Origin: a virus
Length of the DNA stretch: 64,000 bases
Virus record (IMG/VR): IMGVR_UViG_3300045988_151351
Span: 128,001 to 192,000 of that record
Direction: 5' to 3' (one strand)
Shown here: piece after piece, positions 17,767 through 62,602 of the stretch
Layout of the letters: each line of letters opens with the position of its first letter
Numbering within the stretch: the first letter of the stretch is position 1
Made by a program: the position numbers and the translations under genes
The notes under the pieces: model-generated
What the model was told of the DNA's origin: nothing
The model's database searches: none
What the model saw: the letters and a program-made list of their open reading frames with translations, nothing else

Positions 17767-17776
17767 TAAAATACCA

Positions 17777-18212: not shown

Positions 18213-18269
18213 CAAAGTCCCCATTCCATGCTATAATAAATATACAAATTAAGAAAGGAATTGAATACA

Positions 18270-18488
18270 ATGGATTTCAAGAAAATGAGCGCAGGTGCAG
18301 CATTCGGCAAAATTCTTTACACAGTTGGCAAGTGGTTCGCAACTGCCGCTTTGATCTGGTGGGGCTGGAACATTTTTGCCTGGCACTTTGATCTGCCGCA
18401 GTTCGAGTACATGGAAATCTTTGCCATGCGTATGGCTCTGACCTGTATCATGAAAATTTTCTGGCAGAGAACTGACAAAGGGGATTGA
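18270..18488 (+). CDS. early small membrane protein, about 72 aa
   Basis: Promoter at 18210-18245. Trp-rich TM. Confidence 0.45.
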   Translation: MDFKKMSAGAAFGKILYTVGKWFATAALIWWGWNIFAWHFDLPQFEYMEIFAMRMALTCIMKIFWQRTDKGD

Positions 18489-18545
18489 CAAACAATCCCC
18501 CATGTGCTATAATAAATTCAGAAATTAAGAAAGGAATTGATAATA

Positions 18546-19007
18546 ATGAAAGCAACAGGAATTATCCGCAGAATTGATGAATTGGGGCGCGTAGTTATCC
18601 CCAAGGAAATCCGCCGCACTATCCGAATCCGCGAAGGTGACCCGCTGGAGATTTTCGTTGAAGGTGGCGCAGTCATTTTCAAGAAATACCAGACAATGGG
18701 AAATCTTGAAACTCAGTGTAATGTGCTTTGTGACACATTCCAAAAAATGTCCAGTGCGTGCGCAGTCTTTGATACTGATGGTGAATTGTTCGCGTCAAAT
18801 TCACAGTTCCGCTTTGCCTTTGCCGCCAACATGCCCAAGTTGCCGAAAGATTTAATTGGTTGCCGTGAAATTCTTGAACGCAATCACATGATTTTCATGC
18901 CAATTATCGCTGATGGGGAAATACTGGGAACTCTGGCAGTTGAAACCGATAACCGCGAAATGGTTCAATTTGCGGCAAGAAATTTGGCTGAACAGTCGAA
19001 AAATTAA
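18546..19007 (+). CDS. SpoVT/AbrB-family regulator, about 153 aa: AbrB-N domain plus a C-terminal GAF-like domain
   Basis: RRIDELGRVVIPKEIRRTIRIREGD is the AbrB-N signature. Length and architecture resemble SpoVT. Own promoter at 18484-18520. Confidence 0.6.
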   Translation: MKATGIIRRIDELGRVVIPKEIRRTIRIREGDPLEIFVEGGAVIFKKYQTMGNLETQCNVLCDTFQKMSSACAVFDTDGELFASNSQFRFAFAANMPKLPKDLIGCREILERNHMIFMPIIADGEILGTLAVETDNREMVQFAARNLAEQSKN

Positions 19008-19069
19008 GTCTTGACAAACCAGCCGGTCTATGATACAATAATGATACAAAAGAAAGCGAGGTACTTACA

Positions 19070-19228
19070 ATGAAAATGGTTATCTTCACTCTGGTAATTG
19101 CTATCCTTGTCATTGACTGGCTGGTTGCTATTTTGGAATTTGCTACCGGTCACAAGAAAAGCATTGTTGATGTTATCATCCGTTCATTCCTTCTTTTTGC
19201 CGTGCCTTTTATCGTCCAGTGGTTCTAA
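19070..19228 (+). CDS. early micro-membrane protein, 52 aa
   Basis: Promoter at 19010-19045; hydrophobic. Confidence 0.4.
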   Translation: MKMVIFTLVIAILVIDWLVAILEFATGHKKSIVDVIIRSFLLFAVPFIVQWF

Positions 19229-19374
19229 CTACTGGGCGATAAAATTCACTATTGACAAAATAATAAAAATGTGATATAATAATTATACAATAAAAAAAGG
19301 AATTGATAACATGAATTTTCTATTCAATTTGCCTATTGACATTTTTGATTGCGTATGCTATAATTAAATGATAA

Positions 19375-19568
19375 GAAAATTGCAGCCGCCCGCCGACGTT
19401 TGCCAGCCCCGGTATTTCCATTATAACACCGGCCAGCCATTTTGTCAAGCGAAAAATTGAACAAAAATGAAAAAATATTTGATCCCGAATTTGTGTATTC
19501 TACCAATAGACAAAAAGAAAAACAGGGTGTATAATAAGGGTACAAAGTTAAGGAATGAGGTACTTGAA
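19375..19568 (+). promoter_or_regulatory. composite regulatory element E3 (GC-rich segment, box CCATTATAACACCGGCCAGCCATTTTGTCAAGCG, promoter TAGACA..TGTATAAT)
   Basis: Conserved with E2 and E7. Confidence 0.5.
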
Positions 19569-19748
19569 ATGAGTAAGCGTGAAATGGTCCGCATGATTAA
19601 CGACCGCACTGGTGAAATCGTTGACAAGTTTTTTGATGATTCCGCCGATGCTGATGATCTTGAATTTCTTCTGGACATGATGCAAGTCCATTATCAGCGG
19701 TGGAGCGATGGCGAAATTCTTTATGAAGAAAATGATACAAGGGCTTGA
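19569..19748 (+). CDS. early acidic micro-protein, 59 aa
   Basis: RBS AAGGAATGAGG. Confidence 0.4.
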   Translation: MSKREMVRMINDRTGEIVDKFFDDSADADDLEFLLDMMQVHYQRWSDGEILYEENDTRA

Positions 19749-19806
19749 CAAACAAGCCCCCTATGTGATATAATCAATACAGAAATTAAGGAATGAGGTA
19801 ACTACA

Positions 19807-20019
19807 ATGAAGAACTTCACTATTGACGCTTACATCAAACAGCAGTTGATTTTTGCTGAGACTATGCCTACCGATGCCGAACTGTTCGAGCACAACGCTC
19901 TTGGCGCTATCGAGTGGGATGCTTATGTAAATGGCACTAACCCCGAACTTGAGCGCCGTTGGACTGAAAACTACAAACCCGCCTTTGAAAAGATTATTCG
20001 GGGGGTTTTCCATGGATGA
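19807..20019 (+). CDS. early small protein, 70 aa
   Basis: Promoter at 19745-19780. Confidence 0.45.
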   Translation: MKNFTIDAYIKQQLIFAETMPTDAELFEHNALGAIEWDAYVNGTNPELERRWTENYKPAFEKIIRGVFHG

Positions 20020-48255: not shown

Positions 48256-48529
48256 GACTCAAGTAGCAGATAGAATTGCGAAAGCATTTGGTAATGATTG
48301 GATTGGAGAGTATGATAAGAAATACTATGTTTGGGCTACCGAGAATGGAGAGCGCTTACAGATCGCTATTTCTATGACTTGTCCTAAGAATCCAGTTGGT
48401 GATGTATCTACTGTTGGTTCTAATGCAATGAATTTTGAAGATTCTGCTCCAGTAGTTCAAGAGAAGAAAGAAATTACTGAAGATGAGAAAAAACATATTG
48501 CGGATTTGATGGCCAAACTTGGTCTATAA
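48233..48529 (+). CDS. hypothetical protein, 98 aa
   Basis: ATGG overlap with the preceding gene. Confidence 0.4.
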   Translation: MAKGQIAKTQVADRIAKAFGNDWIGEYDKKYYVWATENGERLQIAISMTCPKNPVGDVSTVGSNAMNFEDSAPVVQEKKEITEDEKKHIADLMAKLGL

Positions 48530-48610
48530 GATTATTTTTGATTTTATAAAAAATAAATGATATAATATATATGTAAGATAAAGAAAGAAAGACTTTTACA
48601 GCAATAGTCA

Positions 48611-48683
48611 TCCAAAGTGGGGTAGAGGATAGCCTATCAGAGTAAAATTCTGAAGACCGCGGTTCGAATCCGCGCTTCGGAAA
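48611..48683 (+). tRNA. tRNA-like gene with a canonical cloverleaf but anticodon loop GTAAAAT (apparent anticodon AAA); isotype uncertain
   Basis: Acceptor TCCAAAG/CTTCGGA with 1 mismatch. D stem GGGT/GCCT. Anticodon stem TCAGA/TCTGA. T arm CGCGG-TTCGAAT-CCGCG. Confidence 0.35.
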
Positions 48684-48708
48684 AATGATTTATAAGTCTT
48701 GATTTTAT

Positions 48709-48779
48709 AGGGGTGTCGGTTAATGGTAAACCACCGGTCTCCAAAACCGGGACTCTCCGTTCGAGTCGGAGCGCCCCTG
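48709..48779 (+). tRNA. tRNA-Trp(CCA)
   Basis: Acceptor AGGGGTG/CGCCCCT. Anticodon stem CCGGT/ACCGG, loop CTCCAAA. T arm CTCCG-TTCGAGT-CGGAG. Confidence 0.6.
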
Positions 48780-48897
48780 CGGGAATTTGTCACAATACCT
48801 TCACGTGGTGTTCCTGTTTTTACTAAAGTTGTGGCAAGTTTGTTAAATTTACCTGCCAAAATTTTCATATATTACTGAGAAAGGTAGGTAAATTTTA

Positions 48898-49542
48898 ATG
48901 AATGGATTTATTTATAAAATTACAAATGATATAAATGATAAAGTATATATAGGAAAAACTTTATCATCTATTGAGAATAGATTCAAAGAACATAAGTAGG
49001 AAAGCCAAAGAGAGTCAGAACAAATTCGACCTTTATATCGAGCAATGAATAAATATGGAAATGAGCATTTTCATATTGAAGAAGTTGAAGAATGTCCTTT
49101 AGAAATTTTATCAGAAAGAGAAAAATATTGGATAAAATATTTTTCTTCTTATGAAAATGGCTATAATGCTACAATGGGTGGCGATGGTAAATAGTTATAT
49201 GATTATGATGAAATTGTAAAAGGTTTTTTATCAGGAAAATTAATGTATGAATTAGCAAATGAATTTGAATGCTGTCAAGATACTATCCGCGCAGCTTTAA
49301 GTTTAGCTAATATAGATTCTACTATTAATGCTAATAAAAAATTAAAAAAAGGAATTATAGCGAAAGATTTAAATGGAAATGTAGTAAAGATTTTTGATTC
49401 TCGGATAGAGGCTGTTAAATGGTTACAAGATAATAACTATGTTGCTAAATCTGTCGTAAAAGATAATGTTATAGCCGCAATAGGTCGAGTAGCTAATGGA
49501 AAACGTAAAAGTGCTTATAATTTGATTTGGGAAAATTTTTAA
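48898..49542 (+). CDS. GIY-YIG homing endonuclease (I-TevI-like), about 214 aa, 2 TAG codons
   Basis: GFIYKITNDINDKVYIGKT...RFKEHK is the GIY-YIG motif. EREKYWIKYF block. ORF 49243..49542 is in frame downstream of TAGs. Confidence 0.6.
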
Positions 49543-49995
49543 TATTTGCCAGTCAAAAAGAAATTTTTTGATTTTATAAAAAATAAATGATATAATATAT
49601 ATGTAAGATAAAGAAAGACAATTACAGCAATTTTAATTTTTTCAAATTGATTGGTAATCCGTGTGTTGTTGGTTCGAGTCCAACTCGTGCGTATTAATTT
49701 ACAAACGATAGCTCAAATGGCAGAGCAACGTAATTAAAAAAGTTGTCTTGTTTTATTTAGTTAAAAAATCTTTTTGATTTTTTATAAAAAATATGATATA
49801 ATATTTATATCAAATGAAAGAAAAAAATAAATAGTTTGGTAGTACCCAGAAAATGAGAGCTGAGCCTTGGGAGATGAGTCAAAGGAACAAAAGACTTTAT
49901 GAAGCGGACAGCCTCGCCAAACAAACCTTGCTTTCCCAAGCAGGTATATACTTACCTGTGACTCGCAGGACTAAATATTGGGAAGAGTATCTTAT

Positions 49996-50070
49996 GGGAG
50001 ACTAGCCTAGTGGTTCAGGCAGCGGACTGTTAATCCGCCAAGCAAGGTTCAATTCCTTGGTTTCCCGCCA
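49996..50070 (+). tRNA. tRNA-Asn(GTT)
   Basis: Acceptor GGGAGAC/GTTTCCC. Anticodon stem GCGGA/TCCGC, loop CTGTTAA. Encoded CCA. Confidence 0.6.
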
Positions 50071-50322
50071 TTATTGGTCTTATACATGGGGTTTCCGATT
50101 TGAACTAAATAGCTAATTACTATTCTTGTGGCAATAGACCAATTAAAAATAAACTGAGGCAAAGGGAAATCGGGTTTAATGTATAGCTATAAAGAAATTT
50201 TATAGTTAGCTATGATGAACTTCATAGTAAAATCCTCTCATAATCAAGTTAATTGGGAGAGGGGTAGTGCGGGAACGGGGAGAAGCGCGCTATAAAAGGT
50301 GAAATACTTCTTTCCACCATAT

Positions 50323-50398
50323 GCCGGTGTAGCCGAATGGCATAGGCGAATGATTTAGGATCATTAATCTGAAGGTTCGAGTCCTTTCACCGGTACCA
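50323..50398 (+). tRNA. 76-nt type-I tRNA with anticodon TAG (reads CUA/CUG); isotype uncertain
   Basis: Acceptor GCCGGTG/CACCGGT. Anticodon stem AATGA/TCATT, loop TTTAGGA. T arm GAAGG-TTCGAGT-CCTTT. A73 and CCA. Confidence 0.45.
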
Positions 50399-50464
50399 TA
50401 AGCCGATATCTTTGTACTATCCGGTGGTTGGCAACTCCATCGTTATGTAAATAAGTTGCTAATA

Positions 50465-50536
50465 TGCCTTATGGTGTAATGGAAACACGCCGCCCAGTAG
50501 AGGGCGGAGTCTTTGGTTCGAATCCAAATGAGGTAA
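50465..50536 (+). tRNA. tRNA-like gene with an 8-nt anticodon loop CAGTAGAG
   Basis: D stem GTGT/ACAC. Anticodon stem CCGCC/GGCGG. T arm TTTGG-TTCGAAT-CCAAA. Confidence 0.3.
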
Positions 50537-50874
50537 TGGTGATTAGAAAAGGGAATGATAATCGCCCATAAAGTAATATAGGATTATCATTATAGATTAT
50601 ATTTATTAAAAATGGCGGCTAAATCTTATATTAGTTACTTGAAAAATATGTGATGCTGCGAGACCTATCAAGTTAGTCTATAAATCACTTGAAGCTATCT
50701 TTTACGCTTACTCTTTTGATTGTTTGGACTGCTTTACGCAAAAGGAAAAATGGAAAAGAGGGTAAGGCTTAACCATAAAGCCAGCTTTTTTGTGAATGAC
50801 TTTTTAAGAGGGGATATAAAAGTTATTTAAGGTGATACTGCCTTGGCGGGTCCGGAACCGCCGAAATGTGATAT

Positions 50875-50958
50875 GCTCTGGTGGCGGAATGGCAGACGCG
50901 ATCGGCTCAAACCCGATTGTCGAAAGACGTGTGGGTTCAAGTCCCACTCTGAGCACCA
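50875..50958 (+). tRNA. tRNA-Leu(CAA), long variable arm
   Basis: Anticodon stem ATCGG/CCGAT, loop CTCAAAC. Variable arm TGTCGAAAGACGTG. T arm GTGGG-TTCAAGT-CCCAC. CCA. Confidence 0.6.
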
Positions 50959-51318
50959 AAAGGATTTAGCATATTAAATTCTTTTTGACATTTTTAAAAA
51001 AATATGATATAATATTTTTACAAAGTTAAGAAAGGAATTTAAAAAAGATGTTCAATGACTTTGATACTCAAATCCAATCCGATGAATTTGAATGGCAGTT
51101 CCTTGAATGGTGTAGACTAATGGAGGAGGAATATGGAAATGAATACCAAGAAGAAAATTGATAGACGCATCTTTAAGAAAAGTCCTGATGAACTTCAAGA
51201 ATATATGATGTTTAAACGACGCGGTTCTCGAACTCCTGCAAAAAAGGGTAAGGGAATGAAATATGAACGCGCACAAGAAAAAGAAAAGTCAAGAAATTTG
51301 GTTTCTGATAATTAATTT

Positions 51319-51394
51319 GGCCCCATCTACTAATTGGCTAGGTGGTAACCCTCTCAAGGTTAAGATGGCGGTTCGAATCCGTCTGGGGTCACCA
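51319..51394 (+). tRNA. tRNA-Glu(CTC)
   Basis: Acceptor GGCCCCA/TGGGGTC. Anticodon stem TAACC/GGTTA, loop CTCTCAA. Confidence 0.45.
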
Positions 51395-51463
51395 ATGCCT
51401 TTTACACCACCAAAAAGGCTGAGGTCCCGTGGGAGCCTCCCGCCAAAAGTCCCACATTTTTAA

Positions 51464-51540
51464 CGGCGCATAGACAAATAGGTATAGTCACTACCCTTTC
51501 AAGGTAGAATGTAGGGGTTCGACCCCCCTTGCGCTGACCA
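51464..51540 (+). tRNA. tRNA-Glu(TTC)
   Basis: Anticodon stem CTACC/GGTAG, loop CTTTCAA. T arm AGGGG-TTCGACC-CCCCT. Confidence 0.5.
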
Positions 51541-51543
51541 TAT

Positions 51544-51619
51544 GGTGCTGTAGTTCAGTTGGAAGAATGCCAGCCTGTCACGCTGGAGGTCGTGGGGTCA
51601 GGACCCATCAGCATCGCCA
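51544..51619 (+). tRNA. tRNA-Asp(GTC)
   Basis: Acceptor GGTGCTG/CAGCATC. Anticodon stem CCAGC/GCTGG, loop CTGTCAC. Confidence 0.55.
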
Positions 51620-51726
51620 TTCGCTTTTTCCTATGTAAGCGATTTTGAAGCATAGAACTTGATGGAGCGTTCTATTAGTCTGATGCCTGCATTAGATTAA
51701 GTTTTATAACCATCACAATTAAATAT

Positions 51727-51803
51727 GCCTGTGGAGCTTATGAGGAACAAGCGCTAGACTCATACCCTAGAGATATTTGGTTCGAATCCAAAGGCAGGCA
51801 CCA
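51727..51803 (+). tRNA. tRNA with anticodon CAT; candidate Ile2 or second Met
   Basis: D stem GCTT/AAGC. Anticodon stem CTAGA/CCTAG (4/5), loop CTCATAC. T arm TTTGG-TTCGAAT-CCAAA. Confidence 0.4.
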
Positions 51804-51804
51804 T

Positions 51805-51878
51805 TGCGGTGGTCTTCTAACGGTAGGATACTGGGCTCATAACCCGGAGACGCGGTTCGATTCCGCCGACCGCAACCA
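51805..51878 (+). tRNA. tRNA-Met(CAT)
   Basis: Anticodon stem CTGGG/CCCGG, loop CTCATAA. T arm CGCGG-TTCGATT-CCGCC. Confidence 0.5.
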
Positions 51879-52227
51879 GTTCAATTTATTTGAACAGTCT
51901 CCAATTTTTCATTTGATTGTCTTATTTTGTTCATAAAATGTAATATGTAAGCCCTTAGATGTTGTGCGTTTCTTCTAAGGTATCATAGTATTAGACGTAT
52001 TCAGCAAATATTCTTTAAGAATAATTTTCGTGATTTGGTTTCACATTTTAATTGCAAATTAAAACGAATAGGTTCGAGTCCTATATATTATCTTTTTACG
52101 TCTAGTGATTTTAATAAGTCGGTTAAGTACATTTAAATAGTTTCTATAATTGATTAAAAGACACAAACAGCCATTAAATATTTCTAATGATATTTGAAAG
52201 TAATTGTGTCTTGTTTTTTATTCCTAT

Positions 52228-52304
52228 GGGCAGATAGCTTATGAGGTCTGAGCACTGGTCTGAAAAACCAGAGGGTGAAGGGTCGGTACCTTCTCTGCCC
52301 ACCA
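52228..52304 (+). tRNA. tRNA-Phe(GAA) with a non-canonical T-loop GTCGGTA
   Basis: Acceptor GGGCAGA/TCTGCCC is perfect. D stem GCTT/GAGC. Anticodon stem CTGGT/ACCAG, loop CTGAAAA. Confidence 0.5.
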
Positions 52305-52572
52305 TTGAAGAACAGCACGAGAGGATCCATATAGGAATAATGATGTTGTATGGCTGCTGGGATTCCTTTGAAAGAATAAGGACTACTCTTTTCTATATAT
52401 TTGGATATATAGGAACAAAAAACTATTCAATAGAGAGAGTTTTTTACATCTAGTTTGTTTTATGTTTTTCTTTAACTTCCTGTTTTGTATCCTTTCGATG
52501 GGTGGTCATGTTTTGTTTTCTCTCCTCTTTCTGTAAAGCAAATCGTTTTTTTACTCTCTATTTTTCATATAT

Positions 52573-52664
52573 GCGGAGGTCGCATAGAGGCCGAGTGCGG
52601 GGGATTGCTAATCCCTTGACCGGGGCAACCCGGTCCGAGAGTTCGAATCTCTCCCTCCGCGCCA
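52573..52664 (+). tRNA. tRNA-Ser(GCT), long variable arm
   Basis: Acceptor GCGGAGG/CCTCCGC. Anticodon loop TTGCTAA. T arm GAGAG-TTCGAAT-CTCTC. Confidence 0.6.
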
Positions 52665-52841
52665 TTAGACTTGATAACTGCAAAAATCTACTACTAATAA
52701 TATTTTCAAATAATAGATAGATGAAATATTATGAAAATCTAAAGTAAGTAATTGGACAAACTTTGTATTTCAATAAGGAAAGTGATTTATTTACTTTTCT
52801 AATATTTATTTTCTAGTCCTGCGAGTCTAGTAATTGAATAT

Positions 52842-52932
52842 GCTGGGGTGCGCAAGCGGTCATAAGCGCCTAGTCTTGAAAACTTGTGTGAGCTAATTAC
52901 TCCCGTGGGTTCGAATCCCACCCCCAGCGCCA
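52842..52932 (+). tRNA. tRNA-Ser(TGA), long variable arm
   Basis: Acceptor GCTGGGG/CCCCAGC. Anticodon loop CTTGAAA. T arm CGTGG-TTCGAAT-CCCAC. Confidence 0.5.
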
Positions 52933-52957
52933 ACAAAAAGAAAGGATAATATAAATT

Positions 52958-54076
52958 ATGAATGTTGTTAATGCTGGTAGCCGATTTCAAATTTATGGTG
53001 AAGATGTAAAAACGTATAAGCGTCTTCCAACTATGTCTTTTGAAGTTAGCTTTAATAAAATGACTGGCTTTTTCTTGGTTTCTCGGCCTGATTTGTCAAT
53101 TAATGAAGAAAAGATTTACGGTAATCATGAAGCAAAAGTAAATAAAGTAATTAAATCTTACAAGTGTTCAACTCGTAATTTTGGTATTATTTTAAGCGGT
53201 CAAAAGGGTATTGGCAAGTCTCTATTTGCTCGCGTCCTTGCGGCAAAAGCTATCGAAAATGGATTTCCGGTAATCATTGTTAATGAATATATTCCGGGCA
53301 TTGCTAATTTTCTTAGCTCTATTGAGCAAGAAGTCGTAGTCATTTTTGACGAATTTGAAAAGACTTTTGGTGAAGTTGAGCATAGTGATCCGCAGGAAGA
53401 AATGCTTTCTTTGTTTGATGGACTTGATAATGGCAAGAAACTTTTTGTTATTACTTGTAATGAAACCCGTAAATTAAATGAGTATCTTCTTAATCGCCCC
53501 GGTCGTTTTCATTATCATTTTATGATTAATTATCCAACAGAAAATGAAATTAGAGAATATCTCAAAGATAAGTTGTCACCGGATTATTATGAGGTAATTA
53601 ATTCTATTGTTAATTTTTCTCGTACAATTAACATGACTTATGATTATCTGCGTGCTATTGTTTTTGAAATTAATCAGGGTTATAGCCTTGAGGAAACTTT
53701 AAATGATCTTAATATCACTCAGAGCAGTTCTGTTACTTTCAATATGACAGTTACTCTCACTTCTGGTAAAGTATATACAACTTATGGTCGTCATATTGAT
53801 TTGGCTGAGACTTCTTATGAATGGTATGACGCATATGATACCAAGAGTGATAATAGATTACGGTTTGCGATTATTCCTAGCAAAATCACTTTTAGAGATG
53901 GACAGCTTTATATCAAGGGTGAAAATACTAAGATTTATGTTGATCCTGACGATTATTGGCAGATTGAAGACGAAGATGAGCGCAAGGCTGTAATTAAAAA
54001 GGCTGAGTCTCAGAGCATTAAAGAAGTTACTTTCCAGAAAAATACTCCTGATTTTACAACGAAGTATCTTGTTTGA
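52958..54076 (+). CDS. AAA+ ATPase, 372 aa
   Basis: Walker A GQKGIGKS, Walker B VVVIFDEFE, sensor NRPGRF. Confidence 0.6.
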   Translation: MNVVNAGSRFQIYGEDVKTYKRLPTMSFEVSFNKMTGFFLVSRPDLSINEEKIYGNHEAKVNKVIKSYKCSTRNFGIILSGQKGIGKSLFARVLAAKAIENGFPVIIVNEYIPGIANFLSSIEQEVVVIFDEFEKTFGEVEHSDPQEEMLSLFDGLDNGKKLFVITCNETRKLNEYLLNRPGRFHYHFMINYPTENEIREYLKDKLSPDYYEVINSIVNFSRTINMTYDYLRAIVFEINQGYSLEETLNDLNITQSSSVTFNMTVTLTSGKVYTTYGRHIDLAETSYEWYDAYDTKSDNRLRFAIIPSKITFRDGQLYIKGENTKIYVDPDDYWQIEDEDERKAVIKKAESQSIKEVTFQKNTPDFTTKYLV

Positions 54077-54142
54077 TTTTATAAAAAATTTATGATATAA
54101 TATATATGTAAGGTTGAGAGATAAATAATCTCTCCCTTATAT

Positions 54143-54228
54143 GCCGGTGTGGTGGAATGGTAGACACAAGGGACTTAAAATCCCTCGGTGGCAGCACTGT
54201 GCGGGTTCGAGTCCCGCCACCGGCACCA
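54143..54228 (+). tRNA. tRNA-Leu(TAA), long variable arm
   Basis: Acceptor GCCGGTG/CACCGGC. Anticodon stem AGGGA/TCCCT, loop CTTAAAA. CCA. Confidence 0.6.
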
Positions 54229-54260
54229 CGTAGATATTAATCTACGAAGTTAGGCTTAAC

Positions 54261-54626
54261 TTGAAAATATTTTATGAATCCAGTAGAAAAGAAAGTTTCT
54301 ACTGGATAAAAGCATTAGGAGGCTTTAAAATGAAATTTTATTCAGAACTGACAAAGAATTTTTATGAAAGTGAAGATGCCTGTAAGCAGGCTGAAAGTAA
54401 GTTCAATAAAGAGCTTGCTGAGAAGGAAGCTAAGGAGAAGGCTTTGAAGGCTGAACGTAAGCAGCGCGCCGAAGAGGTTAATGATGCATACAAGGCTATT
54501 AAAGAAGCTGAAAAGCATTATTGCGAACTCCGCGATCAATTTATAAAGGATTATGGTAGTTTCCATATGACATTTACTGATACTGGTAGTTTCTTCTTTG
54601 ATCCTTTCAGATTTACTATTCTGTAA
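54261..54626 (+). CDS. coiled-coil protein, 121 aa
   Basis: K/E-rich heptads. Confidence 0.4.
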   Translation: MKIFYESSRKESFYWIKALGGFKMKFYSELTKNFYESEDACKQAESKFNKELAEKEAKEKALKAERKQRAEEVNDAYKAIKEAEKHYCELRDQFIKDYGSFHMTFTDTGSFFFDPFRFTIL

Positions 54627-54789
54627 TGAATGTGCCGTTTCCTGTTTATCCGATCTTTTAGACGGGAAACGGCATTTTCCTCATATTTGGGTCTTTAGCT
54701 CAGTTGGCAGAGCACCTGATTCTTAATCAGGGTGTCCGGGGTTCAAGCCCCCGAAGGCCCACCAAATTTAGTTAGGAGTAAAAATTATT

Positions 54790-55668
54790 ATGGAGTATAC
54801 TGGATATTTTGTCAAATTTAATAATTTTGCTGCGCACCCCTCTGGAACAGGTCGTTTACATATTGATGTTTTAAGTAAATATTCTCAAGTACTTTGGGGA
54901 CAATGGCGAAATGGTATAAATCTTTTGAATGAAAAAATTCGTAAAGAAATGAATGATGTTGCACCTTTTAAGTTTTATGCTTTAGATAAATCTGTAGCTT
55001 TATTAAAAATGAATGTGACTCGAGTACTTACTCGTGAAGAAGTTATTGCAGAAAAGTTAGAATATCTTATTCCAGATTATTATAATATTGATACACCATG
55101 TTCAGCATATTATCTTATTGATAAAATTGAAATTCTACCCGTTGAATCTGCACTTAAAATAATTAATATCAATACTAAGAAGTCAATCTATGATTCAGCT
55201 CAAGTGAATAGTACGACTCCTTGGAGAGTATGTGAAATTGATAATGATTTAGGAATAGAAAATATTGTTATTCCTAGTGTAACAACTAAATCTGTTAAAT
55301 TTAATCCGCCTGTCTCTTCTGAAAATATATCTAATATTATTTCTCATAAGTCTAAAAATGAAACCTATTGTATTTATCAATATTATTCTAAAACTATGAA
55401 GAAAAGTTATATTGGCTTAACTAATGATATTAATAGGCGTAAAAAAGAACATGAAAGTCCTAGCAATTGGACGCGAGAAAAGAAAAAATATCTTTATACA
55501 GCAATGCAACTTATGGGATTAGATGATTTTGAATTCCATATTCTGCATGATAATTTGTCTGAGGAAGATGCTCATTACTGGGAAGCAAAAGAAATTGAAA
55601 ATCATCATTCTTATTTCCCGGACGGATTCAATGAAAGAAATGAATCCCGATTCTTAAAAAATATTTGA
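54790..55668 (+). CDS. protein with a C-terminal GIY-YIG nuclease domain, 292 aa
   Basis: YCIYQYYSKTMKKSYIGLTNDINRRKKEHES is the GIY-YIG motif. Confidence 0.5.
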   Translation: MEYTGYFVKFNNFAAHPSGTGRLHIDVLSKYSQVLWGQWRNGINLLNEKIRKEMNDVAPFKFYALDKSVALLKMNVTRVLTREEVIAEKLEYLIPDYYNIDTPCSAYYLIDKIEILPVESALKIININTKKSIYDSAQVNSTTPWRVCEIDNDLGIENIVIPSVTTKSVKFNPPVSSENISNIISHKSKNETYCIYQYYSKTMKKSYIGLTNDINRRKKEHESPSNWTREKKKYLYTAMQLMGLDDFEFHILHDNLSEEDAHYWEAKEIENHHSYFPDGFNERNESRFLKNI

Positions 55669-55735
55669 TTTTTTAAAAAATTTATGATATAATATATATG
55701 TAAGGTTGAGAGATAAATAATCTCTCTCTTATATG

Positions 55736-56020
55736 CCGGATTAAACAATAGTAGCTAACGATAGTTGAATAGACGGGTCGGGGCTAACATAGAAAGGTTA
55801 GCAGGTAGTGCGGCGGTAGGTAACAAATCCGCAAGTCGAAATGAGTCGGGAAAACCGAATGATACGGCTTAGATGTTTTCCTCATTTGAGGTTTGGATGG
55901 AGATTTTAGGCGAAGGATAACAACCTTTGACTGCCATCTTGTAAAGCGACCATGAAACCGGGTCATAGCTACCATGCTATTGTTTATTTTTAATGTGCGG
56001 GTTTAAGTCCCACCACTAGT
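55736..56020 (+). ncRNA. structured non-coding RNA candidate, about 285 nt, expressed from a duplicate of the tRNA-Leu(TAA) promoter and leader
   Basis: Promoter and leader at 55660-55745 are near-identical to 54075-54152. First 10 nt TATATGCCGG are shared with the tRNA. No ORF. Ends with a T-arm-like GCGGGTTTAAGTCCCAC. Confidence 0.35.
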
Positions 56021-56039
56021 ATTAAATCTATCCCTTTAG

Positions 56040-56116
56040 CTTAGTGGAATAAAGCGCGTGGCTACGAACCACGAGACCGGGAGTTCGAGTCTCTCAAGGG
56101 ATGCCATGTGGCTGTA
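56040..56116 (+). tRNA. tRNA-Arg(ACG)
   Basis: Acceptor ATCCCTT/AAGGGAT. D stem GCTT/AAGC. Anticodon stem CGTGG/CCACG, loop CTACGAA. Confidence 0.55.
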
Positions 56117-56117
56117 G

Positions 56118-56193
56118 TTCAGTTGGTAGAACGTCTGATTGTGGCTCAGAAGGTCGTGGATTCAATTTCCACCAGTCACCCCATATGCTCTCG
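56118..56193 (+). tRNA. tRNA-His(GTG)
   Basis: Acceptor GTGGCTG/CAGTCAC. Anticodon stem TCTGA/TCAGA, loop TTGTGGC. Confidence 0.55.
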
Positions 56194-56196
56194 TAG

Positions 56197-56335
56197 CTCA
56201 ATCGGTAAGAGCCGGCGACTTATCCAAGATTAGTTTAAATGGTAAAATAGTCTATGCGCAAGAAAGATGTAAGTTCAAATCTAACATCTTGGGCCAAATC
56301 GCCAGATGTGGGTTCAAGTCCCGACGGGAGCACCA
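56197..56335 (+). tRNA. 139-nt tRNA with an insertion of about 79 nt in the anticodon loop; the insertion is itself tRNA-like
   Basis: Outer acceptor GCTCTCG/CGGGAGC, D stem GCTC/GAGC, anticodon stem GGCGA...TCGCC. The insert is bounded by CCAAGAT/ATCTTGG (7/7 bp) with D-arm GTTT-AAATGGTA-AAA and T-arm GTAAG-TTCAAAT-CTAAC. Confidence 0.4.
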
Positions 56336-56703
56336 TTAACCAACAAGCCTATGGCGACAACTCTAAGCTCAAACCGTTGGTTTTCTGAACAAACGAATAA
56401 AAACCTTTCGTTCTAAGACCTAAAGTACGAAGCAGGGTGACAACCTCCAGAAATGGGACTTAGTTTTGGGTTAAAGTTGAGCGTTTATTATAAATTGATC
56501 TCGTCAATTAATTTTTAATAAATGCGATTTTTTATGCAAAAGTAGTCAAGAGGTTTAAGACCCCAATCTGCAAAACTGTGTGACTCTTTGGGCGTGGGTT
56601 CGAATCCCGATGGGAGCACCATAAGGCATAAACAGCAAATAATTAAATATTTTGCCATTTTCTTTTAAGCGAATGACGCACCATTTTATTATGCCTAGTA
56701 TAT

Positions 56704-56780
56704 ACTTCATTAGCTCAATGGACGAGAGCATCTGATTTCTAATCAGAGGGTTTGAGGTTCGAGTCCTCAATGAAGTGCCA
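56704..56780 (+). tRNA. tRNA-Arg(TCT)
   Basis: Acceptor ACTTCAT/ATGAAGT. D stem GCTC/GAGC. Anticodon stem TCTGA/TCAGA, loop TTTCTAA. Confidence 0.55.
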
Positions 56781-56795
56781 ATGTGAGGATTATAA

Positions 56796-57146
56796 ATGAA
56801 AATTGAATTTAAACAAAGTCAAGCTGATTATTTTAATTATGTAATTCAAAAATATGGCGGTAGTTGGGAATTATCTGAAGGAGTTATTATTCTTCAAAAT
56901 GAAGATGACTATTTCCGAATTGAACATAATAATGTTACAACTGGAAAATTATATACTGCTTGGCATAAAAATCATTTTCATAATAAAAATGATTTTCATA
57001 AACAATTATCATTACATAATTTAAGAAAATTGTTTTTTAGATGTGCTACTCATAAAATGCGTTGTAAAGAAAAAAGATGTTATAAGCGTTCAGATTATAT
57101 TCAAGATATGGAAGATTATAGAAATTTTCAGAAAGCTTTAAAATGA
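56796..57146 (+). CDS. hypothetical protein, 116 aa, in the tRNA island
   Basis: Intact ORF with RBS. Confidence 0.4.
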   Translation: MKIEFKQSQADYFNYVIQKYGGSWELSEGVIILQNEDDYFRIEHNNVTTGKLYTAWHKNHFHNKNDFHKQLSLHNLRKLFFRCATHKMRCKEKRCYKRSDYIQDMEDYRNFQKALK

Positions 57147-57199
57147 TAAATTGATTTTATAAAAAATTTATGATATAATATTTATACAAGATAAAGAAA

Positions 57200-57325
57200 G
57201 ACAGTATCAGCAATTAATGATATTTGCTTTGGGAGCCGGAAATTATAGGTTCGAATCCTATATCCCTGACCAATTTCGGGGATTAGTTTAAATGGATAAA
57301 ACGCCGTTAAAAATCTGTCTTGTGT
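57200..57325 (+). ncRNA. candidate circularly permuted or split tRNA: a 3' half (T-arm TATAGG-TTCGAAT-CCTATA, acceptor ATCCCTG, ACCA) directly followed by a 5' half (acceptor CGGGGAT, TA, D-arm GTTT-AAATGGAT-AAAC)
   Basis: The two acceptor strands pair 7/7 with one G-U. Anticodon-stem halves CCGTT and GCCGG pair 4/5. Confidence 0.3.
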
Positions 57326-57327
57326 AT

Positions 57328-57404
57328 GGAGATGTAGTTCAGTTGGTTAGAATATTCGACTGATAATCGAAAGGTCAGTGGTTCAAATCCACTCATCTCT
57401 ACCA
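57328..57404 (+). tRNA. tRNA-Ile(GAT)
   Basis: Acceptor GGAGATG/CATCTCT. Anticodon stem TTCGA/TCGAA, loop CTGATAA. Confidence 0.55.
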
Positions 57405-57430
57405 TTATTCCAACAGAAAGGAATTTTAAG

Positions 57431-57670
57431 ATGAAACTTACAAACATTTCTCAGGTCGAAGATTTTATCGCCGCGGTTAATCGCGCACATAGTAATGTAT
57501 GGCTTGTAAGTCCGCAGGGTGATAGATATAATATGAAATCTGCGCTTTCTCAGTATATTGCTCTTGGAGCTTTGCTTGGTCAGCATGGTGATGAACTTGA
57601 GCTTTTCTGTGATAGTAAGCAGGATGAAGGATTGTTTATTGAATTTTTCGTTAAGCATCCTGAAGTCTAA
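57431..57670 (+). CDS. small hypothetical protein, 79 aa
   Basis: RBS AAAGGAATTTTAAGATG. Confidence 0.4.
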   Translation: MKLTNISQVEDFIAAVNRAHSNVWLVSPQGDRYNMKSALSQYIALGALLGQHGDELELFCDSKQDEGLFIEFFVKHPEV

Positions 57671-57708
57671 TTTAACATTTAAACTATTTTAATTAAAATA
57701 GTTTATAT

Positions 57709-57785
57709 CCGGGTGTAGTTCAGTTTGGTAGAACGCTTGATTTGGGATCAAGAGGCCGTGAGTTCAAGTCTCGCCACTCGGACCA
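57709..57785 (+). tRNA. tRNA-Pro(TGG)
   Basis: Acceptor CCGGGTG/CACTCGG. Anticodon stem CTTGA/TCAAG, loop TTTGGGA. Confidence 0.55.
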
Positions 57786-58080
57786 TCAGGGTTCTGTTAA
57801 AAATATATAATTGAAAAGGATTGATCTCCCTGAGTAGATTTGTATTTGAATGAAAAAATGAGGTCTAGATGACACAGATAACCTCCCCTGAACCATCCCT
57901 TTTCCTAATATGTGGTCTGGGTTAAACAATTAGGCACTGCTCGTATTCATATTACCTATGCGGTATATGGATTCCTCGTATTTAAGACTCTGTAACAGCA
58001 AATGATTTAACATAATAACTGTTTAATTCTCTTTTAAAGAATTTTTTGTAATTTTGTTTTTAAGAGTCTTGTTTAATTAT

Positions 58081-58155
58081 ACTGGTGTCGCCAAGTGGGA
58101 AGGCACAGGACTTTGACTCCTGTATTCGTTGGTTCAAATCCAACCACCAGTGCCA
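58081..58155 (+). tRNA. tRNA-Gln(TTG)
   Basis: Acceptor ACTGGTG/CACCAGT. Anticodon stem CAGGA/TCCTG, loop CTTTGAC. Confidence 0.55.
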
Positions 58156-58239
58156 TTGTGCCAGAAGAACAAATGATCCGATGGGCAAATAAAATATTTA
58201 TTCGGGATGTGTGGTTCAACTACCTAAAGTTATTTATAT

Positions 58240-58325
58240 GGGAGAGTGGCAGAGTGGTCAATTGCGGCGGACTGTAAATCCGTTGCCTTCGGGCTTCGTT
58301 GGTTCAAATCCAACCTCTCCCACCA
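58240..58325 (+). tRNA. tRNA-Tyr(GTA), long variable arm
   Basis: Acceptor GGGAGAG/CTCTCCC. Anticodon loop CTGTAAA. Confidence 0.55.
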
Positions 58326-58415
58326 ATTAAAAGATTAATTACGAGAAAAATAAGTAAAAATTTATTTGATTTTTATAAAAATAAATGATATAATATTTAT
58401 AGAAAATAAAGATAT

Positions 58416-58492
58416 GCGAGATTAGCGCAGCTGGTTAGCGCATCTGCCTTACAAGCAGGAGGTCACTGGTTCGAGTCCAGTATTTCGCACCA
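58416..58492 (+). tRNA. tRNA-Val(TAC)
   Basis: Acceptor GCGAGAT/ATTTCGC. Anticodon stem TCTGC/GCAGG, loop CTTACAA. Confidence 0.55.
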
Positions 58493-58652: not shown

Positions 58653-58727
58653 TGAGGGGTAGCATAGCGGCAAATGCGCCGGTCTCTAAAACCGGATAAG
58701 TGGGGTCGGCACCCACCCCCTCCGCCA
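58653..58727 (+). tRNA. amber suppressor tRNA-Sup(CTA), 75 nt, canonical cloverleaf, with glutamine-like identity
   Basis: D stem GCAT/ATGC. Anticodon stem CCGGT/ACCGG, loop CTCTAAA (U33, C34 U35 A36, A37). T arm GTGGG-GTCGGCA-CCCAC. Acceptor (T)GAGGGG/CCCCTCC with unpaired 1:72, G73 and CCA. Confidence 0.7.
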
Positions 58728-61381: not shown

Positions 61382-62602
61382 ATGGCTGAAAAGACATTAA
61401 AAACTCGTATTTTATTACGCAATGACAGTGCCGCAAATTGGGAAGCCAATAAAACAACTGTCCTGAAAAAAGGCGAAATTGGCATTGAAATTGATACTAA
61501 TAAAATGAAAATTGGTGATGGTGTAACTGCTTATGGTAACTTAAAGTACTTTGGCGGTGAAGCTGCACTTAATTTTGAAGTATTTCCAAAAGGCGAAACA
61601 ACTGATATTGAAGCGATTAACGCGGCTGTTGGTGATACTGAGATTCACAATGGTGATACTGCTATTGTAAAACGTGATATTGCTGGTGGTAAATCTTCCT
61701 ATACCGCATATGTTTATGATGGCGAATGGAAGGCTATGGATGGCAATTATCGTGCTGATAATGTTTATTTTGATGAAGATCTAATTTATACTGCTAATAT
61801 TGGCGTAAAGACTGTTCCTAGTTCTGGTTCTGGTACTATTGATGCTGCTGGTAAGAATGTTGAAGAAGTTCTTAAATCTATTCTCGCCGCTGAAAAGAAT
61901 CCTAGTAATACAAAACCTTCTGTTTCTTTTAGTACTCAAAGTGGTTTTGGTACTTTCGAGATTGGTACTAAGAAGAATTTGACTTATACTGCTGCTCTAT
62001 CTGCTGGTAGTTATACCTACGGTCCTGCTACAGGTATTACTGCTCAGTCTTGGGAAGTTAGTTGTACTGGTGTTGAAGGTTCTAAGGATACTGCTACTGG
62101 CACTTTTGAAAACGTAATTGCTGAATCTACGGCTAAGAAGATTACTGCCAAGGCTAACTATAATGAAGGTGCTATTCCTAAGACTAATCTTGGTAATCCT
62201 TATCCTAATGCTAAAATCGCAGCAGGGAGTGCTTCTAAAGATTCTAATTCTTTGATTGGTGTTCGTCATATGTTCTATGGTGTTCTTAAATCTGATGCCG
62301 TTCTTGACAGTAGTGTTATTCGTAGATTAAATCATGAAGCTGCTGATAAAAAGACTATCACTACTTTTGGAGCAGGTGCTGGAGCAGTTAAAGTTGTCAT
62401 TGCTTGTCCTGCTGGATATAATGTAACTAAGGTTCTTATGCCTAGTGCTATGAATGCTGATGCTACTGCTAACTTTGTAAAACAAGCTGGCACTGTTAAT
62501 GTTGAAGGTGCTGAGGGCTACACCGCAGTTCCTTATACTATTTGGATGTATAAACCAGCTTCAATTGATGCCAGCGAAACTTATGCTGTCACAATTGGTT
62601 AA
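61382..62602 (+). CDS. tail fibre protein, 406 aa, TAG-free, with the same N-terminal motif
   Basis: TRILLRNDSAANWEANKTTVLKKGEIGIEIDTNKMKIGDGVTAYGNLKY. Confidence 0.6.
   Translation: MAEKTLKTRILLRNDSAANWEANKTTVLKKGEIGIEIDTNKMKIGDGVTAYGNLKYFGGEAALNFEVFPKGETTDIEAINAAVGDTEIHNGDTAIVKRDIAGGKSSYTAYVYDGEWKAMDGNYRADNVYFDEDLIYTANIGVKTVPSSGSGTIDAAGKNVEEVLKSILAAEKNPSNTKPSVSFSTQSGFGTFEIGTKKNLTYTAALSAGSYTYGPATGITAQSWEVSCTGVEGSKDTATGTFENVIAESTAKKITAKANYNEGAIPKTNLGNPYPNAKIAAGSASKDSNSLIGVRHMFYGVLKSDAVLDSSVIRRLNHEAADKKTITTFGAGAGAVKVVIACPAGYNVTKVLMPSAMNADATANFVKQAGTVNVEGAEGYTAVPYTIWMYKPASIDASETYAVTIG

What the first reader, a model, noticed from the sequence alone, without database searches (positions are those of the whole stretch)
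55660..56020. About 285-nt RNA sharing promoter, leader and first 10 nt with tRNA-Leu(TAA)
An 85-nt promoter and leader duplicate (54075-54152 versus 55660-55745) drives a non-coding, structured sequence. Its 3' end is T-arm-like and abuts tRNA-Arg.
Basis: seen in the sequence. Interest (0 to 1): 0.5.

Follow-up and report, generated by a model that had tools for sequence, protein, structure and literature searches.

The report
Known phage RNA with borrowed tRNA promoter
The sequence is a real structured non-coding RNA gene of the already catalogued but functionally unknown phage family RAGATH-33, which here gained a copy of its neighbouring leucine tRNA's promoter when a 1.5-kb mobile cassette was inserted between them.

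Summary
A 76-nt stretch is duplicated at 74/76 identity (54072-54147 and 55664-55739). It holds a TTGATT-17-TGaTATAAT promoter, a leader hairpin and the first 5 nt (not 10) of tRNA-Leu(TAA). The second copy sits in front of a non-coding structured RNA.

The RNA is not new. Positions 55754-55866 match Rfam RAGATH-33 (RF03102) at 137.9 bits against a gathering score of 120.4. About 100 homologues from gut, viral and metagenome contigs show that the conserved RNA is about 241 nt (55744-55984), roughly twice the Rfam model. It has about ten helices; 98.4% of cells are paired and 35 of 50 pairs show compensatory changes.

The family lives in phage tRNA arrays. It starts either 2-5 nt after a tRNA 3' end or just behind its own sigma-70-type promoter.

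A 98-99% identical relative (L055) has tRNA-Leu followed directly by the RNA. Window 54229-55739 is therefore a 1,511-bp insertion carrying a small ORF, tRNA-Lys, a GIY-YIG endonuclease gene and the promoter copy.

The T-arm-like 3' end (55994-56024) is a decaying relic of the tRNA-Leu 3' end, not part of the RNA.

The biochemical function remains unknown. I rate this a new member of a known family, of moderate-low interest.

The parts
54072..54147 (+). Original copy of the 76-nt repeat: promoter (hexamers 54073-54101), leader with hairpin, and the first 5 nt (GCCGG) of tRNA-Leu
54143..54228 (+). tRNA-Leu(TAA), intron-less, CCA encoded. In relatives the RNA starts directly after its 3' end
54229..55739 (+). 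1,511-bp insertion relative to L055, L056 and L087. It carries hairpins, a small ORF (about 54332-54626), tRNA-Lys(CTT), a GIY-YIG ORF and the second copy of the 76-nt repeat
   Evidence: BLAST flanks are 98.0% and 98.9% identical to L055, with the junction at 54228/55740. Also
54689..54764 (+). tRNA-Lys(CTT) inside the inserted cassette
54790..55668 (+). ORF of 292 aa with an N-terminal PUA-like region and a C-terminal GIY-YIG homing-endonuclease domain. Its TGA stop codon (55666-55668) lies inside the -35 hexamer of the duplicated promoter
55664..55739 (+). Second copy of the 76-nt repeat (74/76 identical): promoter hexamers 55665-55693, leader hairpin 55708-55726, GCCGG 55735-55739
55744..55984 (+). 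Full-length conserved RAGATH-33-family RNA (about 241 nt). Helices: P1 55744-53/55975-84; P2 55759-66/55772-80; P3 55783-88/55797-802; P4 55804-09/55968-73; P5 55813-16/55829-32; P6 55835-38/55865-68; P6a 55846-49/55855-58; P7 55880-91; P8 55895-900/55934-39; P8a 55911-16/55924-29; P9 55949-51/55961-63
55754..55866 (+). Part of the RNA covered by the Rfam RAGATH-33 model (RF03102, positions 1-113 of 113)
   Evidence: 137.9 bits, gathering score 120.4, E = 5e-29
55994..56024 (+). Decaying relic of the tRNA-Leu 3' end (T-arm, 3' acceptor strand and former CCA). It matches 54198-54228 at 23/31, and all 8 differences are G/C-to-A/T transitions
56030..56183 (+). tRNA-Arg(ACG) 56030-56106 and tRNA-His(GTG) 56108-56183, downstream in the same presumed transcription unit

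Best explanation
Window 55744-55984 is a gene for a stand-alone structured RNA of about 241 nt belonging to the Rfam family RAGATH-33. This family is a constant resident of the tRNA arrays of large, uncultured phages found mostly in gut metagenomes. The closest cultured relatives, judged from the neighbouring ATPase, are Herelleviridae-like phages of Firmicutes.

Shown:
- The family's conserved RNA is about twice as long as the Rfam model. A 10-bp terminal stem (P1) and a long-range helix (P4) close a multi-helix core.
- In relatives the gene starts either 2-5 nt after a tRNA 3' end, often with the next tRNA 8-11 nt downstream, or just behind its own sigma-70-type promoter.
- The nearest relatives have the order promoter, leader, tRNA-Leu(TAA), RNA, relic, tRNA-Arg.
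- This window has a 1,511-bp insertion between tRNA-Leu and the RNA. The insertion ends with a second copy of the tRNA-Leu promoter, leader and GCCGG.

Inferred:
- The insertion is a homing-endonuclease cassette. The promoter copy keeps the RNA and the downstream tRNA-Arg and tRNA-His transcribed after they were cut off from the tRNA-Leu promoter.
- The RNA ends are made by the host's tRNA-processing nucleases. RNase P cutting at tRNA-Arg, followed by 3' trimming back to P1, would give the 3' end. In this phage the 5' end probably keeps, or loses to general nucleases, a leader of about 45 nt instead of being defined by tRNA-Leu 3' processing.
- The T-arm-like element is a pseudogene fragment with no role.

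Biochemical role (my commitment, low confidence of about 0.3): a stable trans-acting RNA that uses the tRNA operon only as an expression and processing platform. It would act as a compact scaffold or decoy, alone or bound to protein, in phage takeover or counter-defence. I do not think it is a cis-regulator or a tRNA mimic.
For: Family identity:
- The Rfam hit lies above the gathering score.
- A full-length covariance model gives one hit in the window, at 55740-55994, with 281 bits.

Full length and structure:
- nhmmer gave 105 hits in the held sequence, 100 of them spanning essentially the whole profile.
- In the 76-sequence alignment, 98.4% of cells are paired and 35 of 50 pairs have changes on both sides. 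Slid controls reach at most 48% paired, and 0 of 500 shuffles reach the observed values.
- P7 and P8 recur with many different complementary arm sequences.

Context:
- 83 distinct contexts were sorted. 31 start within 5 nt of a called tRNA end, and 30 have a promoter-like site within 30 nt upstream.
- Many of the remaining 22 follow a tRNA 3' end that ARAGORN misses.
- 76 of the 83 have a tRNA within 1.5 kb.

Insertion:
- L055 is 98.0% identical to window 52226-54228 and 98.9% identical to 55740-56183, and the two blocks abut in L055. L056 and L087 show the same arrangement.
- The ORF in the cassette carries a GIY-YIG domain.

Relic:
- Among clade members, mean identity is 71% for the 44 nt after the RNA. 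It is 93% for the RNA itself and 92% for the functional tRNA-Leu 3' half.
- The relic is truncated in L039, L099 and L043 and absent in L018 and L058.
- All 8 differences from tRNA-Leu are GC-to-AT transitions, in a genome of 35% GC.
- On its own the relic folds no better than shuffled sequence (z = -0.06).
Against: - There is no expression data, so the transcript ends and the use of the duplicated promoter are inferred.
- The cassette's donor could not be found. The GIY-YIG ORF has no relative in viral contigs, and the cassette is absent from all held loci. The mechanism that produced the promoter copy is therefore unresolved.
- No protein family is conserved next to the RNA across clades. 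No paper held in the library names RAGATH-33. The functional statement is therefore an argument from context only.
- The leader hairpin followed by a U-rich stretch is flagged as terminator-like. It might attenuate transcription.
Confidence: 0.8

Rival explanations
1. A chimeric, tmRNA-like or tRNA-like RNA. The 5' GCCGG would pair with the 3' CUAGU next to the T-arm-like hairpin, forming an acceptor/T-arm module around the large insert. That module would then serve for RNase P processing or aminoacylation.
For: The topology (5' acceptor piece, large structured insert, T-arm, 3' acceptor piece) resembles tmRNA. GCCGG and CUAGU can form G-U, C-G, C/A, G-U and G-C (sequence).
Against: - ARAGORN and Rfam find no tmRNA or tRNA here, even at E <= 10.
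- The CCA has become TTA, and the T-stem has a mismatch.
- The relic folds no better than shuffles.
- L055 has the identical relic without the 5' GCCGG partner. Other close relatives have lost the relic while keeping the RNA.
- About 100 homologues lack any tRNA-like module.
Confidence: 0.04
2. A dead tRNA-Leu duplicate whose D, anticodon and variable arms were replaced by an inserted element. The whole of 55735-56024 would then be a pseudogene with no function.
For: Both ends derive from tRNA-Leu.
Against: The two ends have different histories. The middle is under strong purifying and compensatory selection in about 100 loci. A promoter is retained.
Confidence: 0.04
3. RAGATH-33 is, or rides on, a miniature non-autonomous cassette that inserts at the 3' end of tRNA genes and duplicates about 30 nt of the tRNA, as integrative elements do at attL/attR. 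This does not exclude the RNA also having a cellular function.
For: - The order tRNA-Leu, RNA, relic of the tRNA-Leu 3' end is found in the whole Leu(TAA) clade.
- A second, younger example with an unrelated 260-nt insert lies in the same window. A complete tRNA 3' end at 56308-56336 is followed by the insert and then a 90% identical copy at 56594-56622. The site is empty in L055 and L087.
- In different clades the RNA abuts different tRNAs: Leu CAA, TAG and TAA, Val and Asn.
Against: - No integrase or other recombinase is linked to it.
- Most clades show no relic.
- Unequal recombination between the conserved T-arms or the repeated promoters of a tRNA array could give the same picture.
- Many copies have their own promoter and no tRNA next to them.
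Confidence: 0.15
4. A cis-acting leader or processing element of the downstream tRNA operon, for example a platform that controls read-through or maturation of tRNA-Arg and tRNA-His.
For: It lies between the promoter and the tRNAs here, and 33 of 83 contexts have a tRNA within 50 nt downstream.
Against: In many loci the next feature is another promoter, a protein gene or nothing close. The identity of the downstream tRNA varies (Thr, Gly, Arg, Asn). P1 closes the RNA as a self-contained domain with no alternative pairing into the flanks.
Confidence: 0.1
5. A known catalytic RNA that was missed: a group I intron, RNase P RNA or a self-cleaving ribozyme.
For: Junctions and loops are highly conserved. 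The original RAGATH series was collected around ribozyme-associated genes (own knowledge). Relatives carry an intron-like insert in the neighbouring tRNA-Leu.
Against: - No Rfam family other than RAGATH-33 matches at E <= 10 with permissive filters.
- The RNA lies outside the tRNA, not within it.
- The intron-like insert in relatives is a separate sequence with an HNH ORF.
Confidence: 0.05

Closest known systems
RAGATH-33 RNA (Rfam RF03102; from the Weinberg et al. 2017 set of 224 candidate structured RNAs, PMC5737381)
   Same: The full 113-position model is matched at 137.9 bits, above the gathering score, and all three modelled hairpins are present. L016 from the same clade scores 139.4 bits.
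   Different: - The Rfam model covers only the 5' 113 nt and shows about 45 of them as unpaired.
- Here the conserved unit is about 241 nt. Much of that 'unpaired' stretch forms P4 (pairing with the 3' end), P5 and P6. Five more helices lie 3' of the model.
- The window copy has an unusual 45-nt tRNA-Leu leader.
Stable small RNAs in the phage T4 tRNA cluster (species 1 and 2, RNA C and D); own knowledge
   Same: These are non-tRNA stable RNAs encoded inside a phage tRNA gene cluster. They are co-transcribed with tRNAs and released by tRNA-processing enzymes, and their function is unknown.
   Different: No sequence or structural relationship was tested or is expected. RAGATH-33 is larger and more complex, and it often has its own promoter.
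GOLLD and ROOL large RNAs (PMC5737381; PMC12286853)
   Same: These are phage- or prophage-associated structured RNAs that often sit next to tRNA genes and have no conserved protein partner nearby. The authors suggested co-transcription with tRNAs.
   Different: They are much larger (about 600-800 nt). There was no Rfam match to them here. Nothing indicates that RAGATH-33 forms multimers.
tmRNA
   Same: Only the linear order in this one window is similar: a 5' acceptor fragment, a large insert, a T-arm and a 3' acceptor fragment.
   Different: There is no ARAGORN or Rfam hit, no CCA, no tag reading frame and no intact acceptor stem. The tRNA pieces are absent from the rest of the family.
attL/attR duplication of tRNA 3' ends by integrative elements (own knowledge)
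   Same: An intact tRNA is followed by an insert and then a displaced partial copy of the tRNA 3' end.
   Different: The insert is only about 250 nt, with no recombinase gene. The duplication could equally come from unequal recombination within the array.

Membership tests
RAGATH-33 (RF03102) | Covariance-model score at or above the curated gathering score (120.4 bits) over the full model | tested here: met
   137.9 bits, model positions 1-113 of 113, E = 5e-29
RAGATH-33 (RF03102) | The three modelled hairpins (here P2, P3 and P6a), with conserved loops and linkers | tested here: met
   The alignment to the consensus shows no non-canonical pairs. In 73 distinct homologues these helices are 99.5-100% paired
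RAGATH-33 (RF03102) | Phage or metagenomic genomic context | tested here: met
   Homologues come from IMG/VR viral contigs of 100-220 kb and from gut metagenomes. The window encodes phage proteins
tRNA | Cloverleaf recognised by ARAGORN or Rfam RF00005 | tested here: not met
   No tRNA call within 55735-56025, and none at E <= 10
tmRNA | tRNA-like domain with paired 5' and 3' ends and CCA, plus a tag-peptide reading frame | tested here: not met
   ARAGORN found no tmRNA, and Rfam tmRNA did not hit the locus. The CCA has mutated to TTA
Group I intron | Match to the Rfam Intron_gpI core | tested here: not met
   No hit at E <= 10
Group I intron | Interrupts a host gene whose exons join to give an intact product | tested here: not met
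   In L055, L056, L087 and L018 the RNA lies after a complete tRNA-Leu with CCA
RNase P RNA | Match to any Rfam RNase P model (P4 core and conserved regions) | tested here: not met
   No hit at E <= 10 with permissive filters on an 801-nt query
Integrative element at a tRNA gene | Direct repeat of the tRNA 3' end flanking the insert | tested here: met
   The relic at 55994-56024 matches 54198-54228 at 23/31. In relatives the complete tRNA directly precedes the RNA
Integrative element at a tRNA gene | Recombinase encoded by, or linked to, the element | tested here: not met
   The insert is a 241-nt non-coding RNA, and no protein family is conserved within 3.5 kb across clades

The most novel reading that the evidence does not exclude
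RAGATH-33 may be much more than the 113-nt 'sRNA' in Rfam. On this reading it is a ten-helix RNA of about 241 nt with invariant loops and junctions, carried almost exclusively in the tRNA arrays of a broad group of large phages from gut and other metagenomes, and cut out by tRNA-processing enzymes. It would either act directly on tRNAs or the translation apparatus, as a ribozyme or a tRNA-binding scaffold, or be a miniature cassette that spreads by inserting at tRNA 3' ends. The second, unrelated example of tRNA, insert and relic at 56308-56622 would then point to a general insertion mechanism in phage tRNA arrays.
Probability: 0.15. Interest if true: 0.7.

Novelty: new member of a known kind. 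Interest (0 to 1): 0.3.

Why it matters
- The finding itself is an ordinary instance of a catalogued orphan RNA family, so it does not reveal a new kind of system.
- The follow-up gives the family usable boundaries (about 241 nt instead of 113), a covariation-supported secondary structure, and a consistent genomic setting inside phage tRNA arrays.
- It also gives a testable maturation model in which the ends are set by tRNA processing or by the RNA's own promoter. These are the things needed to design Northern, RACE, probing, cryo-EM or pull-down experiments on an RNA whose function is still unknown.
- The window is also a clean natural example of how a homing-endonuclease cassette can split an operon while the downstream genes stay expressed through a duplicated promoter.
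- It shows, too, how tRNA 3'-end relics can mislead sequence-only reading into seeing tRNA-like chimeras.

Tried and rejected
- **GenBank phages.** blastn of the locus found no match, so no annotated relative exists.
- **Literature.** No held paper contains 'RAGATH-33'. The Weinberg 2017 supplements are not held. The phage papers that mention RAGATH concern RAGATH-18.
- **Cassette donor.** I searched viral contigs for relatives of the GIY-YIG ORF and blasted the cassette against all 126 held loci. Only tRNA-Lys matched, so the origin of the promoter copy stays unresolved.
- **Conserved neighbouring protein.** ORFs within 3.5 kb of 100 loci were clustered. The largest cluster covers only 21 loci and is clade-specific.
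- **Group I intron, tmRNA, RNase P, SRP, 6S and T-box.** None matched at E <= 10.
- **Intron-like insert in relatives.** The 738-nt insert in tRNA-Leu of L016 also gave no Intron_gpI hit, perhaps because it holds an HNH ORF.
- **Single-sequence folding of 55734-56022.** Uninformative (z = -1.2). Only comparative analysis revealed the structure.
- **Resemblance to the 16S rRNA 3' end.** It shares the short words GUAACAA, AAGUCG and GUAGCU. I dismissed it because, by my own estimate, that number of shared 6-7-mers is expected by chance for sequences of this length.
- **Possible pseudoknot.** An invariant G-run (GGGUC or GGGG) might pair with the GA-YYYY tract in the P8 internal loop. The data are consistent, but only one side varies, so I make no claim.
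- **Formal pair counts for P7 and P8 on alignment A3.** These failed because that region is misaligned between clades. I replaced them with a per-sequence helix search.

Full report
**Observation.** The window carries a dense array of at least 26 tRNA genes between about 48.6 and 58.7 kb. tRNA-Leu(TAA) lies at 54143-54228. Aligning its upstream region with the finding shows that 54072-54147 and 55664-55739 are identical at 74 of 76 positions. Each copy has a TTGATT-17-TATAAT site with a TG extension (54073-54101 and 55665-55693). Each also has a leader that folds into a stable hairpin (-14.4 kcal/mol, z = -3.8).

The promoter part belongs to a family of at least eight similar promoters spread through the array. 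Only this pair remains about 97% identical through the leader, so it is a true duplication. Identity ends after GCCGG, which is five nucleotides of the tRNA, not ten. Downstream, 55994-56024 matches the T-arm, 3' acceptor strand and CCA of the same tRNA-Leu (54198-54228) at 23 of 31 positions. tRNA-Arg(ACG) starts at 56030.

**What the RNA is.** Rfam places 55754-55866 in RAGATH-33 (RF03102). The score is 137.9 bits against a gathering score of 120.4, with E = 5e-29 and the full model matched. A permissive scan of 55600-56400 at E <= 10 gave no group I intron, tmRNA, RNase P or tRNA match inside the locus. ARAGORN calls nothing there either.

Pattern scans of the viral, metagenome and genome collections, followed by nhmmer, recovered 105 hits in the held sequence. 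Of these, 100 span essentially the whole profile. They come mostly from viral contigs of 100-220 kb and from gut metagenomes.

These homologues show that the conserved unit is much longer than the Rfam model. It runs from a 5' strand at 55744-55753 to its partner at 55975-55984, about 241 nt. A covariance model of the full length (R1) gives a single hit in the window, 55740-55994, at 281 bits.

On the 76-sequence alignment (73 distinct rows), 98.4% of cells form standard pairs and 35 of 50 pairs show changes on both sides. Sliding the partners by 1-3 columns drops pairing to 28-48%, and no shuffle out of 500 reaches the observed values.

The helices are as follows:
- P1, the terminal stem of 10 bp, in which all ten pairs covary.
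- P2, with a variable-length insert in its loop.
- P3.
- P4, a long-range helix (GGUAGU with GCUACC) that ties the Rfam 'unpaired' region to the 3' end.
- P5, with an invariant 12-nt loop.
- P6 and P6a.
- P7, a variable hairpin.
- P8, with 18 different arm pairs among 41 distinct segments; most are clean complementary variants of one helix.
- P8a, with a 7-nt RUAACRA loop.
- P9, with a UGAAAC loop.

The minus-strand ORF of 63 aa is not conserved. This is a genuine, complex structured RNA.

**Genomic setting of the family.** I sorted 83 distinct contexts:
- 31 start within 5 nt of a tRNA 3' end called by ARAGORN. These are mainly tRNA-Leu with anticodon CAA, TAG or TAA, and also Val(TAC) and Asn(GTT).
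- 30 have a sigma-70-type promoter (TTGACA-17-TATACT, or the TTGATT...TGATATAAT type seen in this window) ending within 30 nt of P1.
- Many of the remaining 22 follow a tRNA end that ARAGORN misses, for example an intron-containing tRNA-Leu.
- 27 have the next tRNA within 30 nt downstream, and 76 of 83 have a tRNA within 1.5 kb.

No protein family is conserved next to the RNA across clades. The only constant partner is the tRNA array. This fits an RNA that is transcribed with tRNAs, or on its own, and trimmed by tRNA-processing nucleases. That last step is inferred, not shown.

**Why this copy shares the tRNA-Leu promoter.** Locus L055 is 98.0% identical to window 52226-54228 and 98.9% identical to 55740-56183. 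In L055 these two blocks abut: the tRNA-Leu CCA is followed at once by UUAAACAAUAG, the start of the RNA. L056 and L087 show the same arrangement.

Window 54229-55739 is therefore a 1,511-bp insertion. It contains, in order:
- two hairpins;
- a small ORF with a ribosome-binding site;
- a terminator-like hairpin;
- tRNA-Lys(CTT) at 54689-54764;
- a 292-aa ORF with a GIY-YIG homing-endonuclease domain;
- the second copy of the promoter, leader and GCCGG.

The endonuclease ORF ends with a TGA inside the -35 hexamer of that copy (sequence). This suggests the endonuclease gene once sat directly upstream of a tRNA-Leu unit of this type in a donor genome.

I infer that a homing-endonuclease cassette entered between tRNA-Leu and the RNA, bringing or creating a promoter copy. 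The second tRNA-Leu body was then lost or never transferred. I could not find the donor, so the exact path is open. The functional consequence is simple. The RNA, tRNA-Arg, tRNA-His and the following genes keep a promoter even though the cassette, with its own hairpins, now separates them from the original one.

**The T-arm-like end.** The same relic is identical in L055, which has a complete tRNA-Leu upstream. The 5' GCCGG and the 3' relic therefore did not arise together.

Within the tRNA-Leu(TAA) clade, the first 44 nt after the RNA average 71% identity. The RNA itself averages 93% and the functional tRNA-Leu 3' half 92%. The relic is truncated in L039, L099 and L043 and absent in L018 and L058.

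All eight differences from the tRNA are G/C-to-A/T transitions, including CCA to TTA, in a genome of 35% GC. Alone, the relic folds no better than shuffled sequence. It is a decaying pseudogene fragment, left by an old event that placed the RNA behind tRNA-Leu with a duplication of the tRNA 3' end.

A second, younger case of the same architecture lies nearby. A complete tRNA 3' end at 56308-56336 is followed by an unrelated 260-nt non-coding insert and then a 90% identical copy of the T-arm, acceptor strand and CCA at 56594-56622. L055 and L087 lack this insert and the second copy. This keeps open a reading in which small cassettes insert at tRNA 3' ends. Unequal recombination between the many similar T-arms and promoters of the array would explain it as well.

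**Function.** Nothing in the held literature names RAGATH-33. The 2017 paper in which I understand the family was described (own knowledge) notes that GOLLD and ROOL share the habit of sitting next to tRNAs in phages, possibly because of co-transcription. The phage T4 tRNA cluster likewise encodes stable non-tRNA RNAs of unknown function (own knowledge).

My committed view, at low confidence, is that RAGATH-33 is a stable trans-acting RNA that uses the tRNA operon as an expression and processing platform. It is closed by P1 as a self-contained domain. Its invariant loops include several GNRA-like ones. It has no fixed downstream gene. These points argue against a cis-regulator and for a compact scaffold, decoy or catalytic fold.

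**Context of the phage.** The neighbouring ATPase is about 40-43% identical to proteins of Herelleviridae-like phages of Enterococcus, Brochothrix and Bacillus. Treating TAG as a sense codon restores long reading frames in window 1-20000, and an amber-suppressor-type tRNA(CTA) is present. This is probably a large, stop-codon-recoded Firmicutes phage from the gut.

**Verdict.** The tRNA-like ends are historical debris. The added value lies in the corrected length and structure of the family, its tRNA-array setting, and the insertion history that explains the duplicated promoter.

Noticed in passing
window 56187-56332: A tRNA (Rfam 41.4 bits; probably tRNA-Ile UAU) has a 76-nt insert in its anticodon loop. 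The insert (56223-56297) resembles the tRNA-Gly(UCC) of related phages and ends in ...AUCUUGGGCCA, so a tRNA-like sequence is nested inside a tRNA. ARAGORN does not call the insert, and its minimum-energy fold is not a cloverleaf.
   Followed up: partly
window 56308-56622: A complete tRNA 3' end (56308-56336) is followed by a 260-nt non-coding insert (56337-56593) and then a 90% identical second copy of the T-arm, acceptor strand and CCA (56594-56622). The near-identical relatives L055 and L087 lack the insert, and it matches no other held locus. This is the same 'tRNA, insert, relic' layout as tRNA-Leu, RAGATH-33 and its relic.
   Followed up: partly
window 56339-56382: A weak match to the abiF RNA motif (RF03085; 25.8 bits against a gathering score of 37, E about 0.02) lies directly after a tRNA. 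If real, it could be a phage-borne mimic of an abortive-infection antitoxin RNA.
   Followed up: no
L016 6411-7148 (minus strand); also L020, L024, L039, L094, L099: In these relatives tRNA-Leu(UAA) is split between U34 and A35, the classical site of the cyanobacterial tRNA-Leu group I intron. The intervening sequence of about 738 nt ends in G and encodes a 148-aa HNH endonuclease. Rfam Intron_gpI did not hit it. The window, L018 and L055 copies have no such insert.
   Followed up: partly
window 1-20000 and 58653-58727: Reading TAG as a sense codon raises stop-free coverage from 0.47 to 0.99 in 8001-12000 and lengthens several minus-strand ORFs. A tRNA with anticodon CTA is encoded at 58653-58727. 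The phage probably recodes TAG in part of its genome.
   Followed up: partly
window 48529-58423: At least eight copies of a near-identical strong promoter (TTGATTTTATAAAAAAT..ATGATATAATAT) punctuate the tRNA array. They split it into many short transcription units and offer homology for unequal recombination.
   Followed up: partly
window 50465-50536: ARAGORN reports a tRNA with a four-base anticodon (gtag). Related loci also show tRNAs with odd anticodon loops (gcag, aaaa, tttt, ggta). These could be frameshift-suppressor-like tRNAs or prediction artefacts.
   Followed up: no
window 51806-51874 and about 49620-49700: A tRNA at 51806-51874 is found by Rfam (47.9 bits) but not by ARAGORN. A T-arm-like repeat member at 49648-49681 is called by neither tool. 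The array holds more tRNA-like genes than either tool lists.
   Followed up: no
window 61382-62602: The ORF has an N-terminal Mtd_N domain (major tropism determinant, E = 6.5e-11) and matches to tail-fibre families. It may be the target protein of a diversity-generating retroelement. No reverse transcriptase was looked for.
   Followed up: no
window 54790-55668: The GIY-YIG endonuclease ORF has an N-terminal PUA-like region and no relative in the IMG/VR viral contigs. Its stop codon overlaps the -35 hexamer of the duplicated promoter.
   Followed up: partly
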